Below are positions 35,949 through 45,344 of a stretch of 64,000 bases of DNA, piece after piece. Each line of letters starts with the position of its first letter. Position 1 is the stretch's first letter. This DNA is from Nitrosopumilus sp. Lineage in GTDB: Archaea; Thermoproteota; Nitrososphaeria; Nitrososphaerales; Nitrosopumilaceae. The stretch spans positions 1,216,001 to 1,280,000 of the forward strand of contig OZ244732.1 of assembly GCA_965219345.1 (NCBI GenBank). The letters are read 5' to 3'. The notes under the pieces are model-generated. The model was not told the DNA's origin and searched no databases. It saw nothing but the letters and a program-made list of their open reading frames with translations. The position numbers and the translations under genes were made by a program.

Positions 35949-37079
35949 TCATTTTATCTTTTCAATTATGGGTAAATTAGTAATGGCCATCTTGAGATCA
36001 GGTTCATCAGATTCTGGCCAATTCCAACATCCTTGAATTCTAAGTAATACATTATTGACATCAGTACTTGTAATTTCAATATCTCTAACGTCTATATCAT
36101 ATTCATCACCAAATTGAGAGATTTCATTTATTAGCATATCTTTTAACACTTCTTCATTGATATCTGATGTTAAAATGGCATCCCAATTAGTATGGCAACC
36201 CAGATCATTTTGACGAAATTGAATTGCCCATTCTCGTTCAATTAATTTTGATTTTGTATCTGAACTAACACATGCTATGCGGTTACTTTCAGAATCGTGA
36301 GATTGTTTTAGAATAATATGCAAGTCTGATTTGCAGCGAATAGATTCCTGAAGTATACCAAATTTAGATTATTTGAGAGGGGGAAATGTTTCAGTGACAT
36401 CAGTTAGTTTTCCAATTGTAACTAAAGGATCTTCAGTTATTGCATTCCCTTGTTTGGTTACTGCAAAAGGCCAACTTACATGTATTACACATGATTCATC
36501 TTGAGTCCAAGGTGAATTATTGGATTTAAACAAAATTGCATTAAAATTATAATTACCAGGTCCCAAGGCATTGAAACCAAAAGTCACATCTTTGGTACTG
36601 TTTTTGAAAAATTTTTGGTAATCATATTCAGATGAATTTAATCCAGAAGATGTGGTTTCTGTCAAAACTGCCAAATTTTCATAACCAGTAAATAATCCGC
36701 CATGTATTGTGCCGTCTTGATTTTTCAAGTCAATAAGATATGAAGGGTCTCCAAAACTCGAAGGTAATTCCATTTGCAAATATTCGTATAAAACATCATT
36801 ATGATTTCCAATCACTGCAAAGTAATTGTGTTGAAATCCATCCAAGTCAAGAAGAGAATGATTAGTAGAATTTACCAATTTCACGGAATAATTTGTAAAG
36901 AGAAACATGCACTAATCACTAGATACATCAGTATATTCTAAAATTCCACGTGCAGAAGAATACATGTTATCTGGTAATCGTTTTTCATGTTCTTCACTTG
37001 GAAATCCATATGATTCAGAAGCCATAAACAAAATTCCAGAAAAACCAGTCATAATCAGAAAAATTACAAAATATTTCAT
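35949..37079 (-). pseudogene. Exported protein broken by two in-frame stops
   Basis: Single frame from MKYFVIFL (37079); TAG at 36912 and TAA at 36369 inside the PPLK*..C..ACV..KLIERE W-type motif. Confidence 0.75.
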
Positions 37080-37217
37080 GATACACCTATCGAGAGAATA
37101 TGACTGTCATAAAGTGTTCTAATCTTTTGTATTGATTCTATGATGTTTGAACTTATTTTGTACAATGATGAGAATGGTACTAGGCTGATCTTGCTAAATC
37201 TGATGAAAGTTTGGTTT

Positions 37218-37778
37218 TCATTTTCTTTTTCTCAAAAAATAAAACATAATTCCAGTTACCATTATGCCTCCAATGACAACTGGGATTAACTCATATGCAG
37301 TATTGGTAAATGCAATGGGTTTGGTAATAGAATTTCCTTCAACAATGATTGTTTGTCCTGGACCAAATTCTGGACCTATTTTATCTATATTAAATTGAGT
37401 ATGCATGTGATATGTTCCTGCTTCAAGAGCTTTTGCAGATAGTGAATATTCAATCACGGAGTTTCCTGGAATATTAAAAACTACATCTAGCGGTTCTCTT
37501 GCTAACATTTCCCATCTGTTACTTGTATCTGATGACTCCGAAAAAAATGACAGCCATCCTCTAATTTCTTGGTTATTAGAATTAATCAAAACTCCTCTTA
37601 CAGTCAAGGTTTCACCTGTTTGCAAAAATTGTTGGCCAAAGGTTTCATCGCCGATTGTAATTATGGGTGGAGTGAGAGTGGATTTTATACTATGCATCTC
37701 TGCACTTGGAATGGCAAAATCAATACCCTGAAATCCTAAAACTCCCAGTACAAAGATTATGACAAATACCGTTTTCAT
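37218..37778 (-). CDS. amoB: Divergent archaeal ammonia monooxygenase subunit B paralogue
   Basis: DETF..LQTGETLT, RGW, SES..NRWEML, IPGNSV, LSAKALEAG.YHMHTQ, GPGQT..VEG, KPI..TN.AY match archaeal AmoB as I recall it; termini differ. Confidence 0.85.
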   Translation of the reverse strand: MKTVFVIIFVLGVLGFQGIDFAIPSAEMHSIKSTLTPPIITIGDETFGQQFLQTGETLTVRGVLINSNNQEIRGWLSFFSESSDTSNRWEMLAREPLDVVFNIPGNSVIEYSLSAKALEAGTYHMHTQFNIDKIGPEFGPGQTIIVEGNSITKPIAFTNTAYELIPVVIGGIMVTGIMFYFLRKRK

Positions 37779-37795
37779 TTTTCAACACTCATTTG

Positions 37796-39145
37796 CTAAT
37801 TACTTGCATGTTTAATGATTGGAATGTTGAATGTCCATGGTCCTTCTGCAATCACAATCTTTGGAACCGGCTGATTTTCTATCGGGGTCATATGTGGTGG
37901 TTTTGTCGGAGGTAATGCATCCATTATTGCTCTATCTTGCCTTATCCATTGCACTTCTTCAATGGTGAGAGTAATTTTTTTTGCATTAGAATCTAAAGTT
38001 GGTGAAAAAATATGATGCCAAGAAGAATCTGAGATAATTTCTCTTGTTGCGGGATCTGGTCCGCTTGAACTCCCACCACCTTCACTTTCATTTGTACTGA
38101 CATAGTGATTTCCTAAATCATCTTCCAATGTAATACGTAATATTGGGTGACTATTGTGCATCCTTCCATGCATACGGCGCATTTTATGTATATCCGTAAA
38201 ATCAGATTCTGGAATTTTTATGCGTTGGTGAGAATACCAAATCAACCTCATCATGTTTGAGTAAACTTCCAATGATGGTATTGTAAACTCTGTATCTCCT
38301 ACAAAGAGTTGTTTTGATATGGAAACAACATTGACAAGTTTTTTTGGTGGAAGTCCAAAGGAATCAGCAAAGATCTTTACCAAATCCGCTTCTTTAAACT
38401 CAAATTTTGTATTTTCAGTGATAGTCCAAAAAGGTTTTCCTTCAGGTTTCACATCAAGTATTGCGGACTGAAATGAATTTGGAAATGGGGGAGTATGTGG
38501 ACGGGAACGTTTTTGCATATCATTCTCCATGTTTGGATGTTCTTGATTCTCTTTGTTCTGTAATTCATTCTGCTTTTTTTCATGCCATTCCTTTTGGAAA
38601 GGAATGTTGATTCGGTCATTCTTAGTTACTATAAAACCTATGATTTCAGAATAATCCAGATTTGATTGGTATCCAGACATCATTTTTTCAACTATATTCA
38701 TGGTAGCCAGCGTAACAAGTTCTGCCTCTGTAATATTTTCTGATCTTATCTGTGATTCTGGAAACTTGCTAAGCTTGATTGTTTGCTGCCATTCCCGTGA
38801 AACATCTACATTGCATGAAACTGGTCCATAAATGATGATTTTTGGATGAGGATGTATCTTTTTTCCAGGGTTGTTCAAAAATTCTACTTCCATTTTGTGT
38901 GCAACTATTTCCTGTAAATCTAAATTAGACATGGGCAAACATATTGCAGCAGTATTTTTGGTGATACCGCTTATCTTGACTATGTCTCCTTCTTGTATTC
39001 CAATTTTTTGCATGTATTTTGGTTCTATTTTTACAATTGTTTTACATTGATGTGGATCATTATTTTTTTCAAATCTATCCCTTCTTTTATGCACCACACT
39101 AAATTCAACTGAATTATCATCATTCTCAGTCATTGCGGTGTCCAC
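37796..39145 (-). CDS. Protein with CDC48 N-terminal-like domain, no ATPase domain
   Basis: MQKIGIQEGDIVKISG..TAA; no Walker motifs; C-terminal LEDDLGNHY..GGG..GPWTFNIP. Confidence 0.55.
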   Translation of the reverse strand: MDTAMTENDDNSVEFSVVHKRRDRFEKNNDPHQCKTIVKIEPKYMQKIGIQEGDIVKISGITKNTAAICLPMSNLDLQEIVAHKMEVEFLNNPGKKIHPHPKIIIYGPVSCNVDVSREWQQTIKLSKFPESQIRSENITEAELVTLATMNIVEKMMSGYQSNLDYSEIIGFIVTKNDRINIPFQKEWHEKKQNELQNKENQEHPNMENDMQKRSRPHTPPFPNSFQSAILDVKPEGKPFWTITENTKFEFKEADLVKIFADSFGLPPKKLVNVVSISKQLFVGDTEFTIPSLEVYSNMMRLIWYSHQRIKIPESDFTDIHKMRRMHGRMHNSHPILRITLEDDLGNHYVSTNESEGGGSSSGPDPATREIISDSSWHHIFSPTLDSNAKKITLTIEEVQWIRQDRAIMDALPPTKPPHMTPIENQPVPKIVIAEGPWTFNIPIIKHASN

Positions 39146-39265
39146 AAGTTGATTTATCTAGGACATTCATAAAGTGTTTGCATCTTTTATTCTTTTGAGA
39201 ATGAAGTCATGGATTTGGAATTATTGTATATGCAGTATTGTTGTTGGTACACGGATTATTGATTT

Positions 39266-39823
39266 TCATGGATATTGATCCTCAAGACAATCATAATTTT
39301 TTAAATAATCTAAAATATTTTCAGACACACTATAATTCCCAACTTCACAATAAATAGTCATTTCATGTTCAGAATAATCAAAACCATGACGTATGTTTAA
39401 TGTAATCACGTTATTGTTTGTAAAAGTGTGCATATATCGTATGTATTCTTCATTTGGACTGTAAATTTCGACATCCTCGTATCTATCATAAAATGCAATA
39501 ACTTCAGGATAACCTTCAAATTCATTATTGTAAATATAACTTAAAATGTTAACACGCCAAGTATCCCACTGAACTGCAATTATTTCTGCACCTATTACTG
39601 CAATTATTATTATTATGATCATTTTGATGTTTTTTCTATACTTGATTAACCCAATGATACCGCCAACGCAAATCATGCCCATTCCAAAATGATACCATAG
39701 AAATCCATATTTGTCATATGCTCCTATAACCAACCAAAACATTGTTGCAGAAAACAACCCCATGAGTACTTGGAAAAAAATTGTCAACAAAGATAACTGT
39801 GATAATTTGTATTTAGTTTTCAT
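39266..39823 (-). CDS. Membrane protein
   Basis: Three TM helices; ATGA-coupled. Confidence 0.7.
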   Translation of the reverse strand: MKTKYKLSQLSLLTIFFQVLMGLFSATMFWLVIGAYDKYGFLWYHFGMGMICVGGIIGLIKYRKNIKMIIIIIIAVIGAEIIAVQWDTWRVNILSYIYNNEFEGYPEVIAFYDRYEDVEIYSPNEEYIRYMHTFTNNNVITLNIRHGFDYSEHEMTIYCEVGNYSVSENILDYLKNYDCLEDQYP

Positions 39824-40254
39824 TTCTTTATCAATTTCCTAATAATTGAGGATCTGCACAATAGTATTCCACCAATGGATAATTCAACAATCGGTATTAT
39901 TAACGATATGACTAACTGATCTAAAATGTATGGTTGACTATGATCAATTACAGGTGATGTTGTTATCCAAGATTGTAGAAATGAAATTAGGCTGGCGATG
40001 CCAAAATATACCAATGATCCTGCTATTGCCAAAATAAAATACGGTCTTCTAGGAATGTTTTTTCTCTTTAGAATAAGATAAAGAATTGGAAATAATAATA
40101 ATACTGCAACACCCAATGAATAGCCTACAGATATTACAGCACCAATAATGCGGAATGCTTGTTGTTCTATGTTTTCTGGTGAGTCGTTCCATCCATAAAT
40201 CCAGGGAATCTGTACAAGAAAGAATACAATAATTACCAAAAGTCCAATTTTCAT
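39820..40254 (-). CDS. Membrane protein flanked by 27-bp direct repeats
   Basis: Four hydrophobic segments; TTTTCATTTCTTTATCAATTTCCTAAT at 39817 and 40248. Confidence 0.7.
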   Translation of the reverse strand: MKIGLLVIIVFFLVQIPWIYGWNDSPENIEQQAFRIIGAVISVGYSLGVAVLLLFPILYLILKRKNIPRRPYFILAIAGSLVYFGIASLISFLQSWITTSPVIDHSQPYILDQLVISLIIPIVELSIGGILLCRSSIIRKLIKK

Positions 40255-40272
40255 TTCTTTATCAATTTCCTA

Positions 40273-40662
40273 ATGACTGATGATCTGTATAATAAAAACC
40301 CTGCACCTGTTATTGTTACTTACGACATAACAGTTGAGAATGGAGACGGTAGTGGAAAATATGAAGAAGGATCTGAAGTTACCCTAAGTGCACAAGATAT
40401 TTTAGATGATATGTTTGTGTTCAAAAAGAAACTGGCAGGATGGGAGAATCTACCATATACTACACCAATAGTCACATTTGAGACAGATGATGATATAATA
40501 ACTAAACCCATCTACAAAAATGATTACACCATATTACTTGTAATCATTGGAGCTGGTGCTGGCAGAGGCGGCTTTGTATTTTTGAGAACATGGAGGAAGA
40601 AAAATACACCAAAAAAAACAGATGAATTTTCTGATTATGATGAATTAGAAGATGACTTGTGA
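40273..40662 (+). pseudogene. C-terminal fragment homologous to 54735-57575
   Basis: GDGSGKYEEGSEVTLSA..GWE..YKNDYT vs GQGSGVYKIGDTVKISA..HWE..YREDYT. Confidence 0.75.
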
Positions 40663-41197: not shown

Positions 41198-42076
41198 TCA
41201 AAGAAAATTACGAAATATCTTGAGATATCTTTTCATGAACCATTGTAAAAATATAATGTCGTTGTTTTTGACACTTGATCTTTCAAGTGCAGTATAGTAT
41301 GATCTTCTATCTGTATACTCTATGTCAAACATTGGATAATCAAATCGATTTAAAACATAATTCATCATGAGTCTTGATATTCTACCGTTTCCGTCACCAA
41401 ATGGATGTATTGTCACAAATTTTAGGTGGACTAGAGCTGCTAGTTCTACAGGATTTAGTTCTTTTTTATTTTTCTTATACCAAACAAAGAAACTTTTCAG
41501 TAAAACGGGAACGGCCTCTGATTTTGGTGGGACAAATTTACTTCCACCTATGCGCACTTCAAAGTCACGTATCTGTCCTGCAATGTCTGATTTTGTTTCA
41601 CCAAAGAGTAATTTGTGCCACGACAAAATTGTTCCTAGTGACATGTCCTGTTTTTTTTGCATGATTTGCAAAAATAGTTTTTGATGTATCCTGGTTTCAA
41701 TCATATCACTTGCAGGTTTGTTTGATGGAGTTATTCCATCCATGATAAGATCAGCGGTTTCTCGTAGGGTCAAGGTAGAGCCCTCTATTTTTTGTGTATT
41801 ATAGGTGAATCGAATAGAAAACTCTTCAATTTCCTTTTTTTGTACAGACTTTGGAATTTTAGTTCTTGTTTTTTTGTAGTTCTTCTGGACTTGTTCCATC
41901 TTGGAAACCCAATCTTCCCTGTAAAATCCTAACAGAAAGTTATATTTTATTTGTTCAATGTTTTCTGGAATCTCTTTACCAATGTAAATTTCCTTTTGTC
42001 TTTTCTGGTTTCGTATTTTGTGCTGAAGGTAGTAAAATATACGGTTACCTCGCTTTCTTTTTACTATAGATACCAC
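41198..42076 (-). CDS. Fic-domain protein (class II-like)
   Basis: HPFGDGNGRISR; inhibitory-type TQKIEG. Confidence 0.92.
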   Translation of the reverse strand: MVSIVKRKRGNRIFYYLQHKIRNQKRQKEIYIGKEIPENIEQIKYNFLLGFYREDWVSKMEQVQKNYKKTRTKIPKSVQKKEIEEFSIRFTYNTQKIEGSTLTLRETADLIMDGITPSNKPASDMIETRIHQKLFLQIMQKKQDMSLGTILSWHKLLFGETKSDIAGQIRDFEVRIGGSKFVPPKSEAVPVLLKSFFVWYKKNKKELNPVELAALVHLKFVTIHPFGDGNGRISRLMMNYVLNRFDYPMFDIEYTDRRSYYTALERSSVKNNDIIFLQWFMKRYLKIFRNFL

Positions 42077-43452: not shown

Positions 43453-43615
43453 GGCATAAAATAAAAAATCATAATGTCTGAATTTTATTAAAGTATGATT
43501 CACAAAAATATCCGAGTGACATTAAACAAAGTTGGGAGAATAATCCTAAAAGTATTACATATCATAATTTCTTTAAATCTAAACTTTTTTATTATTTATG
43601 ATATGTATTATATTC

Positions 43616-44485
43616 ATGGTAAGTATAGTAAAAGAAAGAGGGTTTTACTATCTAAAACATCACATACAGGCAAAAGAAAAGAGAAAGTATTTGGGCAAGG
43701 CAATCCCAAAAAACATAGAATCTCTCAAAAAGGAGTTTCTAAAACAATTTTACTGTGAGGACTGGGATGAAAGGATACAGTCAATTGGCAAAAAATACCA
43801 AAAAGAGCTAAAAAAAATACCAAAGTCAATTCAACTGAAAAATTTTGAGAGTTTTGGAATTGCATTTACTTACAATACCCAGAAAATTGAAGGTTCCAGC
43901 CTCACAAAAATAGATACCAAAGACCTGCTTGTATTTGGAGTGACTCCCGCAAAGAAATCACAGATTGATACCATAGAGACAAAAAAGCACTATGAATTAT
44001 TCATGAAACTAGTAACATCAAAAAAAATACCAAAGCTTACAAAAAAAACGATACTTCAATGGCACAGGGAGATTTTTGATCAAACAAAAATAGGAGAGGC
44101 AGGAAGCATCAGATCATACGGGGTGGAAGTCACCACTAATGAGAAAATAGACTTTACTCCAGTTGCAGAAATTCCAAAAAAATTAACAGAATTTTTTGAC
44201 TGGCTTTACAAATATGATGGAGAGAAAAATACTGCAGAGTTTGCATGTATGGCACACTACAAGTTTGTATCAATACACCCGTTTGGAGATGGAAATGGCA
44301 GAATTTCACGACTCATCATGAACTATATTTTGCTGAAATACAATTATCCATTATTGATGATAAAAAGTACAGACCGAAGGCCTTATTTCAAGTCATTAGA
44401 GAAATCTCAATTAAACCATGATGAGATTCATTTTCTGAAGTGGTTTATGAAGTATTACATCAAAGAAAATAAGCAATATTTGTAA
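43616..44485 (+). CDS. Fic-domain protein (class II-like)
   Basis: HPFGDGNGRISR, TQKIEG; start MVSIVK as in its paralogue. Confidence 0.92.
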   Translation: MVSIVKERGFYYLKHHIQAKEKRKYLGKAIPKNIESLKKEFLKQFYCEDWDERIQSIGKKYQKELKKIPKSIQLKNFESFGIAFTYNTQKIEGSSLTKIDTKDLLVFGVTPAKKSQIDTIETKKHYELFMKLVTSKKIPKLTKKTILQWHREIFDQTKIGEAGSIRSYGVEVTTNEKIDFTPVAEIPKKLTEFFDWLYKYDGEKNTAEFACMAHYKFVSIHPFGDGNGRISRLIMNYILLKYNYPLLMIKSTDRRPYFKSLEKSQLNHDEIHFLKWFMKYYIKENKQYL

Positions 44486-44717: not shown

Positions 44718-45344
44718 ATGCCCGCAGTAAAATCCGAAGACCTGAAGAAGGCGTACAAGAAGGAAAGGGATCCCAGGGTCAAGATCAGGATGGCCGCAGT
44801 AAACATGGTGTGCATGAACAATGAGAGCATCCAGCATGCGGCAGACTCGCTCATGCAGTGTCCCAACTGGGTCTCCTTCTGGGTGGAACGCTTCCGGGAG
44901 GGCGGCATCGACACCCTCCGGGATCTTCCCAAGAGCGGCAGGCCACCGAAGGTCAGGCCCGAAGACATTGAAGAGACAATGTCCGGGGCAGGCAGCATCA
45001 TTACTCCCCCGCAGCTGAGGGAACGTGTCCGCAAGATGCACGGCATAACATACCACATTACAAGCGCCAGAGGATAATGCGCAGGCTGGGCATGTCTGCC
45101 AAGACGGCAAGACAGGTCCACAAAACAGGGCAGGGACAGACGAAATCAGAAGGTGGCAGCACAACGCAAAGAGGCGCGCATATCGCGCCTGGAATCGAGG
45201 GGTTTTGTCGTCGTAGTCTTTGACGAGTCCATATTCATAGACGACCCGGCATCGGGAACAAAGTACTGGTCCCCGAAGGCCAGCCCATAGTCACCACATA
45301 CAAGGGCAGACACGGCAGGGTCGTGGCGTACGGTTCCATCGCGA
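44718..45344 (+). pseudogene. IS630-family transposase, frameshifted and truncated, conspicuously GC-rich
   Basis: WVERFREGG..LRDLPKSGRPPK HTH; later VVFDESIF; cut by IS5. Confidence 0.8.

What the first reader, a model, noticed from the sequence alone, without database searches (positions are those of the whole stretch)
37218..37778. Orphan divergent amoB paralogue in accessory DNA
Seen: a 186-aa protein collinear with archaeal AmoB. It keeps a His after the predicted signal (AEM-HS versus canonical A-HG) and the YHxHT motif, so the putative Cu ligands remain. The segment after His1 is rewritten, and the conserved C-terminus (TRPWQVI, from recall) is replaced by a TM helix + LRKRK anchor. 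No amoA/C nearby. Established: core AmoB is highly conserved and usually single copy; I recall extra copies in a few marine AOA, so this may not be unique. Inference: a stand-alone surface Cu-binding protein or an alternative AMO subunit.
Basis: partly seen in the sequence, partly recalled or inferred. Interest (0 to 1): 0.75.

Follow-up and report, generated by a model that had tools for sequence, protein, structure and literature searches.

The report
Stand-alone AmoB copy in cassette array
This ammonia-oxidising archaeon carries a second, divergent copy of the copper-binding subunit of its key enzyme inside a swappable block of surface-protein genes, where it likely works alone as a membrane-anchored copper binder; such extra copies were reported once before, and this particular copy is predicted to have a damaged copper site.

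Summary
Confirmed: a real AmoB paralogue (PF04744 over cut-off, best fold match 4O65), about 390 kb from the genome's intact amo cluster, 54% identical to the canonical copy. It is neither an orphan nor unprecedented: a second divergent amoB (amoB2) was described in N. piranensis D3C in 2016. It belongs to one clade (13 sequences; 4 of 401 family genomes) under relaxed purifying selection (dN/dS 0.10-0.30 vs 0.02-0.13) with all three CuB histidines invariant, while the N-terminal arm and C-terminal helix, near-invariant in canonical AmoB, are rewritten. The RKRK tail is not a special anchor: it is the stop/start junction of the MKT...RKRK gene arrays these genes sit in. Here the gene lies in a 2.06-kb repeat-bounded module for which another population shows the empty site. 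Best reading: a stand-alone pseudoperiplasmic histidine-brace copper binder (untested). Wider and not found in my literature searches: 31 non-canonical AmoB-domain ORFs in 18 other genomes, and AmoA loop segments grafted into membrane regulators.

The parts
37218..37778 (-). amoB paralogue (AmoB2-type, 'class I'), 186 aa
37695..37778 (-). Predicted signal peptide, residues 1-28, starting MKT like other array genes
   Evidence: hydropathy, alignment; no signal-peptide predictor was available
37692..37703 (-). A-E-M-H: positions -3 to -1 and His29. Met at -1 where 191 of 191 canonical ORFs and 11 of 13 class I sequences have Ala
37401..37409 (-). His124-x-His126, the two internal CuB histidines, invariant in 13 of 13 class I sequences
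   Evidence: aligned to 4O65
37233..37289 (-). C-terminal transmembrane helix (residues 164-182), rewritten relative to canonical AmoB (2 of 19 canonical-conserved columns kept in 164-186)
37218..37232 (-). Array junction AGAAAAAGAAAATGA: encodes RKRK-stop and overlaps the ATG of the next gene
37180..37221 (-). 13-codon remnant of a following cassette (MKTKLSSDLARSA, then stop)
   Evidence: the same stub is read into by the frameshifted fragment P0148
37796..39145 (-). Upstream 449-aa gene (CDC48_N-like and DUF5643-like hits, both below cut-off), 17 bp before amoB2; likely co-transcribed; second gene of the 2.06-kb module
   Evidence: a homologue also lies near the class I gene of L036
37099..37128 (.). 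Downstream copy of a 30-nt direct repeat (80% alike, promoter-like AT-rich element) bounding the module
   Evidence: D14; joint 37106 to 39167 in run X17
39159..39188 (.). Upstream copy of the same repeat, 2060 bp away
36369..37079 (-). Downstream exported-protein gene broken by one in-frame TAG at 36912-36914 (outside the module)
   Evidence: contigs of runs X6, X7, X10 and X17 have a sense codon there

Best explanation
The gene is a member of a small clade of amoB paralogues carried in swappable arrays of exported-protein genes, and its product likely works outside the AMO enzyme as a single-pass, membrane-anchored cupredoxin that binds one copper ion at the CuB histidine brace in the pseudoperiplasm. 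Shown: homology, separate clade, accessory location, purifying selection on the clade, invariant histidines, loss of the canonical N-arm and C-terminus, array junction, presence/absence of the module. Inferred: an amoB from a marine Nitrosopumilaceae ancestor was captured once into the arrays and took their generic head and tail; after export and signal cleavage His1 and the HxH pair bind Cu; the protein scavenges, buffers or hands over Cu, as CopC, PmoF1, YcnI or Bim1 are thought to. Inferred for this allele: Ala(-1) to Met blocks cleavage in front of His29, so its site is probably weakened or lost while relatives keep it.
For: Canonical amoB with amoC, amoX, amoA is intact 390 kb away; no amoA/amoC gene in the window or in 31 loci around other non-canonical copies, only short AmoA fragments in two. 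Class I is one clade, 13 rows, support 98/93, 100 in a second tree. H29, H124, H126 invariant in 13 of 13 at 50-59% identity for the distant members; Ala(-1) kept in 11 of 13, which suggests selection for a free His1 amine. dN/dS 0.10-0.30 in 15 of 15 class I pairs vs 0.02-0.13 in 33 measurable of 36 canonical pairs. Of columns at least 95% conserved in 108 distinct canonical sequences the window copy keeps 59 of 91 in the cupredoxin core and 8 of 12 in the stalk but 2 of 11 in the N-arm and 2 of 19 in the C-terminal segment. One genome (G269) holds two class I genes 72% identical to each other, which fits accessory cargo better than a stoichiometric subunit. The catalytic centre of archaeal AMO is assigned to CuD, not CuB (bioRxiv 10.64898/2026.08.31.748207, section 6), and isolated archaeal AmoB did not oxidise methane (PMC13058606 section 8). 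Non-catalytic brace proteins are mostly linked to Cu transport (PMC10952591 passages).
Against: No copper-binding, expression or phenotype data for any AmoB2. Neighbours include no recognisable copper transporter or chaperone in the window (Pfam on 14 ORFs), and neighbours are not conserved across class I loci. That the N-arm and C-terminal helix are the AMO interface is from general knowledge of CuMMO structures, not mapped here. The canonical set was selected with N-arm and C-terminal motifs, which inflates their conservation; the only AmoB hits excluded among loci L074-L233 were 4 class I and 3 truncated or frameshifted canonical ORFs. Core and stalk are well conserved, compatible with retained AmoA contacts. 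About half of the wider AmoB-like ORFs have lost HxH, so copper is not what all paralogues are kept for. dS is near saturation in many pairs.
Confidence: 0.5

Rival explanations
1. The clade is functional but this genome's allele is decaying: a recently relaxed, possibly unprocessed or silent passenger in an eroding island.
For: ADA-HG in the sister sequence P0149 became AEM-HS; the codons fit a compensated +2/-2 slip against the L034 and L037 codons (my reading). 11 window-derived vs 4 sister-derived amino-acid changes, several at columns invariant in the 10 other class I rows (A28M, D69N, I160T). 3 of 3 variants seen in other runs are nonsynonymous, whereas 12 of the 24 variants in the two flanking genes are synonymous. 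The next gene has a nonsense codon.
Against: The frame is intact here and in P0002 (97% identical); the rate asymmetry is not significant (p = 0.12); 3 of 3 has probability 0.02-0.05 at dN/dS 0.2-0.3 and rests on low-depth contigs, and close strains always show excess nonsynonymous change. All three His and the core are kept. Cleavage was judged by the -1/-3 rule only.
Confidence: 0.2
2. AmoB2 is an alternative B subunit that replaces AmoB1 in some AMO protomers under particular conditions, tuning copper loading, ammonium capture or substrate range.
For: Same length, topology and fold as AmoB; core 59 of 91 and stalk 8 of 12 conserved columns kept; purifying selection; the 2016 authors raised a catalytic or regulatory role; isolated extra amoC copies are known stress-time subunits (PMC5767755 passage).
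Against: N-arm and C-terminal segment, near-invariant in canonical AmoB, are replaced and are variable within class I; the tail is a generic array junction; patchy distribution (4 of 401 genomes) and strain-level presence/absence; related classes fuse the domain to 872-3504-aa surface proteins that could hardly sit in AMO.
Confidence: 0.17
3. AmoB2 is the outer half of a sensing or decoy pair built from AMO parts: it binds ammonium or copper and contacts AmoA-loop-bearing membrane proteins, including HTH regulators, to report on AMO assembly or substrate.
For: Purified archaeal AmoB cupredoxin domain binds NH4+ (preprint section 5). The AmoA segment around KYPRPTLPPYMTPIEPQ occurs between two TM helices of an HTH regulator 3 kb from the class I gene of L036 (PF12942 over cut-off), in a regulator near a class IV gene (L045) and in a membrane protein near a class II gene (L057).
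Against: This genome has no such protein: only amoA matches the loop profile or PF12942; the 10-of-13 match in the upstream gene has E 1.7 genome-wide and lies in a protein without signal peptide. L234 (G341) has the AmoA-loop regulator but only one AmoB match. Only 1 of 25 regulator loci sampled without regard to AmoB carries the loop. No binding was tested.
Confidence: 0.13

Closest known systems
amoB2 of Ca. Nitrosopumilus piranensis D3C (Bayer et al., PMC4839502)
   Same: Second, highly divergent amoB (48% to AmoB1 there, 54% over 173 aligned residues here), same size class, far from amoAXCB, in a variable region of secreted and membrane proteins, three His kept, nested within Nitrosopumilales AmoB.
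   Different: Reported as unique to one strain; here shown to be a clade with dN/dS, array junctions and an empty-site allele. The window allele lacks Ala(-1). The D3C sequence itself was not obtained (supplement unreadable), so membership of the same clade is inferred from the description.
Canonical archaeal AmoB (PF04744; PDB 4O65; N. maritimus AMO cryo-EM preprint)
   Same: Signal peptide, cupredoxin domain, CuB histidines, one C-terminal helix; 73% DNA identity over 381 bases of the core to the genome's own copy.
   Different: Not in the amo cluster; HGVQAQLQSRF arm and TRPWQVI end replaced; faster evolution; accessory, not core.
Non-catalytic histidine-brace copper proteins: CopC, PmoF1, YcnI, fungal Bim1/X325
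   Same: Exported, single Cu site needing an N-terminal His amine, often membrane-anchored, linked to Cu transport. This is what it probably works like.
   Different: Not homologous by any search here; those often sit beside Cu transporter genes, this one does not; function here untested.
Isolated extra amoC (AOA, AOB) and extra amoA (Ca. Nitrosotalea okcheonensis CS)
   Same: Extra amo gene away from the cluster.
   Different: The extra amoA is 95.5% identical in DNA and was silent in growth; this copy is deeply diverged and re-headed and re-tailed by array junctions.
Integron-like gene-cassette arrays
   Same: Tandem promoter-poor genes joined by a recurring junction, with swaps at the junction.
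   Different: No attC-type structure or integrase was looked for; the junction is a coding stop/start overlap, and the one empty site seen is bounded by a promoter-like repeat instead.

Membership tests
AmoB/PmoB cupredoxin family (PF04744) | Profile match over the curated cut-off | tested here: met
   26.8 bits vs 22.7; bacterial equivalog models far below cut-off, as expected for archaeal AmoB
AmoB/PmoB cupredoxin family (PF04744) | Cupredoxin fold matching archaeal AmoB | tested here: met
   4O65 rank 1, E 6.2e-13, TM 0.69 on target; AMO/pMMO B chains fill ranks 2-10
CuB / histidine-brace site | Three histidines (His1 and HxH) | tested here: met
   H29, H124, H126
CuB / histidine-brace site | His is residue 1 of the mature chain (free amine) | tested here: inconclusive
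   Met at -1 breaks the -1/-3 rule in this allele; Ala in 191 of 191 canonical ORFs and 11 of 13 class I; rule-based only
CuB / histidine-brace site | Binds copper | not testable with these tools
   needs protein
Canonical AMO subunit B | Encoded in or beside amoAXC in Nitrosopumilaceae | tested here: not met
   about 390 kb away
Canonical AMO subunit B | Conserved N-arm and C-terminal segment | tested here: not met
   2 of 11 and 2 of 19 columns kept
Canonical AMO subunit B | Assembles with AmoA and AmoC | not tested
amoB2 (D3C type) | Second, about 50% identical copy in addition to a canonical amoB | tested here: met
amoB2 (D3C type) | In a variable region of secreted or membrane proteins, far from amo | tested here: met
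amoB2 (D3C type) | Same clade as the D3C protein | not tested
   named D3C sequence not retrieved
Integron cassette | attC/attI sites and IntI integrase | not tested
   only the coding junction and a promoter-like repeat were examined

The most novel reading that the evidence does not exclude
Ammonia-oxidising archaea repeatedly recycle pieces of their own AMO into a parallel set of accessory surface and signalling proteins: the AmoB copper domain as stand-alone anchored proteins, as the N-terminal cap of giant repeat proteins and as His-less variants, and AmoA loops as the outer sensor loop of membrane HTH regulators. AmoB2 would be the copper- or ammonium-binding member of this AMO-mimic kit, shuffled between strains by cassette arrays, and a soluble, natural model for what the CuB site does apart from catalysis.
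Probability: 0.25. Interest if true: 0.78.

Novelty: new member of a known kind. Interest (0 to 1): 0.45.

Why it matters
The role of CuB is an open question now that catalysis is assigned to the AmoC/PmoC sites. Natural stand-alone AmoB domains, with alleles that keep (P0149, P0006) or break (this gene) the His1 processing site, make copper binding and ammonium binding by CuB directly testable without purifying AMO. The result also turns the one-strain amoB2 report into a selected clade with a route of spread, and warns that PF04744 or amoB hits in AOA genomes and metagenomes are not all AMO subunits. The gene itself is a further example of something already reported, and may be a weakened allele.

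Tried and rejected
Expression: no RNA holder listed; the D3C proteomics supplement lists a singleton 'subunit B' orthologue group and a singleton 'AmoA' group but gave no abundance rows for them (one file of 10 not readable). The Bayer 2016 supplement with the AmoB2 alignment could not be read and bears on clade membership. Named-genome scan with P0006 found nothing; the scans with the class I alignment returned mostly canonical amoB (76 or more of 80 each) plus L074-L076 and L154. Runs X3 and X4 laid only a canonical amoB stretch despite high word share; uninformative. Order-level search with P0027 was dominated by its C-terminal domain and gave no AmoB-domain census. Recent duplication of the own amoB: rejected. 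Single origin of classes I and III: not rejected by AU (p = 0.198), although the full tree places class III with the canonical copies of its own genomes. RKRK as an AmoB2-specific sorting signal: rejected. AmoA-loop in the upstream gene: not significant. Bacterial promoter scan: at chance level and not suited to archaea. ESM Atlas only returned AmoB clusters. The MKT array is sparse in this genome: 3 junction matches in 1.9 Mb. Small-share runs were not used to name a habitat. One search failed on a script error and was rerun.

Full report
Observation. The ORF at 37218-37778 (-) encodes 186 aa. It passes the PF04744 cut-off, matches the Nitrosocaldus AmoB structure 4O65 at E 4.5e-29, and its model (pLDDT 66.7) has 4O65 as best fold match followed by AMO and pMMO B chains. 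The genome (99.5% complete, 2 contigs) has exactly two AmoB-domain genes by tblastn, PF04744 and a broad profile of my own. The other lies about 390 kb away beside amoC, amoX and amoA and is 54% identical over 173 residues. No amoA or amoC lies in the window.

Precedent. Bayer et al. (PMC4839502; abstract, passages and section 13 read, supplement unreadable) describe amoB2 in Ca. N. piranensis D3C: 48% identical to AmoB1, far from amoAXCB, among secreted and membrane proteins, three His kept, function unknown. PMC5767755 (passages) cites it. Searches for 'amoB2', 'AmoB-like' and 'copies of amoB' and for arrays or cassettes showed no follow-up in the searchable library; subscription papers are not covered.

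Relatives. The protein search gave 9 further full-length relatives with the same tail (P0002-P0010, 53-97%) among 17 hits. Of 401 family genomes 342 had a match and 25, including this one, more than one. Of the 24 others, 18 held 31 non-canonical AmoB-domain ORFs; the remaining 6 look like duplicated or split canonical genes from their coordinates (I fetched only two of those loci). Class I, the type of this gene, occurs in 4 of 401 genomes (G000, G269 twice, G142, G214) and in one named Nitrosopumilus MAG (L154). Other classes: about 218-aa forms with an insertion, mostly keeping HxH; near-canonical domains capping ORFs of 437 to 3504 aa (pentapeptide, RCC1, DUF285 or Yip1 domains in these or their relatives); and forms without HxH. 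HxH is present in 15 of 31 by pattern, 16 counting L061 by eye; one ORF is truncated. The profile search of 50%-identity representatives gave 130 hits at E up to 0.001, 26 of which I read.

Phylogeny and selection. In a 53-row tree class I forms one clade of 13 rows (98/93), nested among marine canonical AmoB, and class III groups with the canonical copies of its own genomes. Forcing the window copy and its sister with the genome's canonical AmoB is rejected (AU p = 0.0004); forcing classes I and III together is not (p = 0.198) (32 rows; 21 rows left out, among them all long class V rows). So the gene was acquired or long inherited, not recently duplicated here. Nei-Gojobori dN/dS is 0.10-0.30 in 15 class I pairs, 0.13-0.23 in 15 class II pairs and 0.02-0.13 in 33 of 36 canonical pairs with finite dS; saturation makes these rough.

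What is kept. H29, H124 and H126 are invariant in 13 of 13 class I sequences. Against 108 distinct canonical mature sequences, the window copy keeps 59 of 91 conserved core columns and 8 of 12 stalk columns, but 2 of 11 in the N-arm and 2 of 19 at the C-terminus. The canonical set was picked by those two motifs, a circularity limited by the few rows it excluded. That these segments contact other AMO subunits is my inference from CuMMO architecture; it was not mapped.

The processing site. A histidine brace needs the amine of an N-terminal His (PMC10952591, listing abstract and passages; PMC13058606 passages). The residue before His1 is Ala in 191 of 191 canonical ORFs, which include repeats of the same genes, and in 11 of 13 class I rows; only this gene and P0002 have Met. 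The sister P0149 reads ADA-HG. By the -1/-3 rule, cleavage before His29 fails and the sites that pass lie at residues 12, 15, 25 or 33. The window branch carries 11 derived changes against 4 in the sister (p = 0.12), and 3 of 3 variants in other runs are nonsynonymous. This is suggestive of a weakened allele, not proof.

Context. Class I and II genes lie in tandem arrays of exported-protein genes that begin MKT or similar and overlap stop with start. In 12 of 13 such genes examined the TGA overlaps the next ATG, and 8 unrelated neighbours end in the same helix plus basic tail; the junction pattern occurs 14 times in 121 kb of array loci and twice in 653 kb around canonical amoB. The RKRK tail is therefore inherited from the array. 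In the window the gene is followed by a 13-codon stub of a next cassette. Contigs of runs X7 and X10 follow the upstream gene up to base 37771 and then continue into other sequence, which by my reading is a different MKT gene. A contig of run X17 joins 37106 to 39167, skipping 2060 bases, exactly the spacing of a 30-nt direct repeat (one contig, 73 letters on the short side). The gene is thus strain-variable cargo. Two earlier AI notes on other genomes describe the same junction; I found it before reading them, and they are not independent support.

Mechanism. Most likely (0.5) class I proteins are exported, cleaved before His1, anchored by one helix and bind one Cu at CuB, acting in copper capture or hand-over like other non-catalytic brace proteins. 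A catalytic role alone is unlikely because the archaeal AMO structure places the active site at CuD (bioRxiv 10.64898/2026.08.31.748207, sections 4-6 read) and isolated AmoB lacks methane oxidation (PMC13058606 section 8). Rivals: decaying allele (0.2), alternative subunit (0.17), AMO-mimic sensor (0.13). No binding, expression or complex model could be obtained. PMC10030591, PMC10432482, PMC6790972 and PMC6593220 (passages) added nothing on amoB2.

Verdict. A further member of the published amoB2 kind, with new context: a clade, a capture route, an empty site and a probable lesion. The wider recycling of AMO parts seen in relatives is the more surprising lead but lies mostly outside this window. 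Interest 0.45.

Noticed in passing
L036:8526-9179 (-), L234:1486-2106 (+), L045:7882-8595 (+): Membrane-anchored HTH regulators whose loop between two TM helices carries an AmoA segment (about 22 residues nearly exact in L036 and L234, 11 of 11 in L045); L036 passes the PF12942 AmoA cut-off. Such proteins could be mis-annotated as AmoA; a D3C proteomics supplement lists a singleton 'AmoA' group.
   Followed up: partly
L057:1697-2077 (+): 127-aa membrane protein whose C-terminal 55 residues match AmoA 155-208 at 47%.
   Followed up: partly
L254 and L257 regulators vs L001:3067-3399: Their outer loops contain GSGTPYL, also found in the 110-aa single-TM gene of the amo cluster (likely AmoZ by recall, not tested); seen by eye.
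   Followed up: no
L039, L040, L041, L042; P0019, P0020, P0028, P0029: Near-canonical AmoB domains with all three His fused at the N-terminus of long surface proteins (pentapeptide, RCC1, DUF285 repeats, Yip1), several followed or interrupted by PPYM motifs resembling the AmoA loop.
   Followed up: partly
L052-L054, L056, L057, L059-L064: A second, more distant array-borne class (about 205-235 aa, insertion, dN/dS 0.13-0.23); three copies in G234; some members lack part of the His set.
   Followed up: partly
L044-L051, L055, L058: AmoB-like domains without HxH, with a Cys pair and a following EDGS...CVKP...ERGW-type module, up to three per genome in one genus.
   Followed up: no
window 36369-37079 (-): Exported-protein gene split by one in-frame TAG that is a sense codon in four other runs.
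   Followed up: yes
window 37871-37909 (-): The upstream 449-aa gene has a 13-residue stretch with 10 identities to the AmoA loop, absent from its L036 homologue; E 1.7 genome-wide, probably chance.
   Followed up: yes
window 39817-39863 and 40248-40294: 47-nt direct repeat 431 bp apart flanking the 144-aa gene, another stop/start junction; a homologue of that gene lies two genes from the class I gene in L154.
   Followed up: partly
window 41198-42076 (-) and 43598-44485 (+): Two Fic-domain genes, plus an IS-like ORF near 44718, in the same island.
   Followed up: no
   Followed up: no
G000:C1:103056-104279: A second small MKT...RKRK array next to the suf genes of this genome.
   Followed up: partly
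G443:C5:69902-70384 and C22:19233-19718; L038: Genomes with two canonical-like AmoB matches (G443; G115, where the second is 81% identical to this genome's canonical AmoB); duplication or binning not resolved.
   Followed up: no
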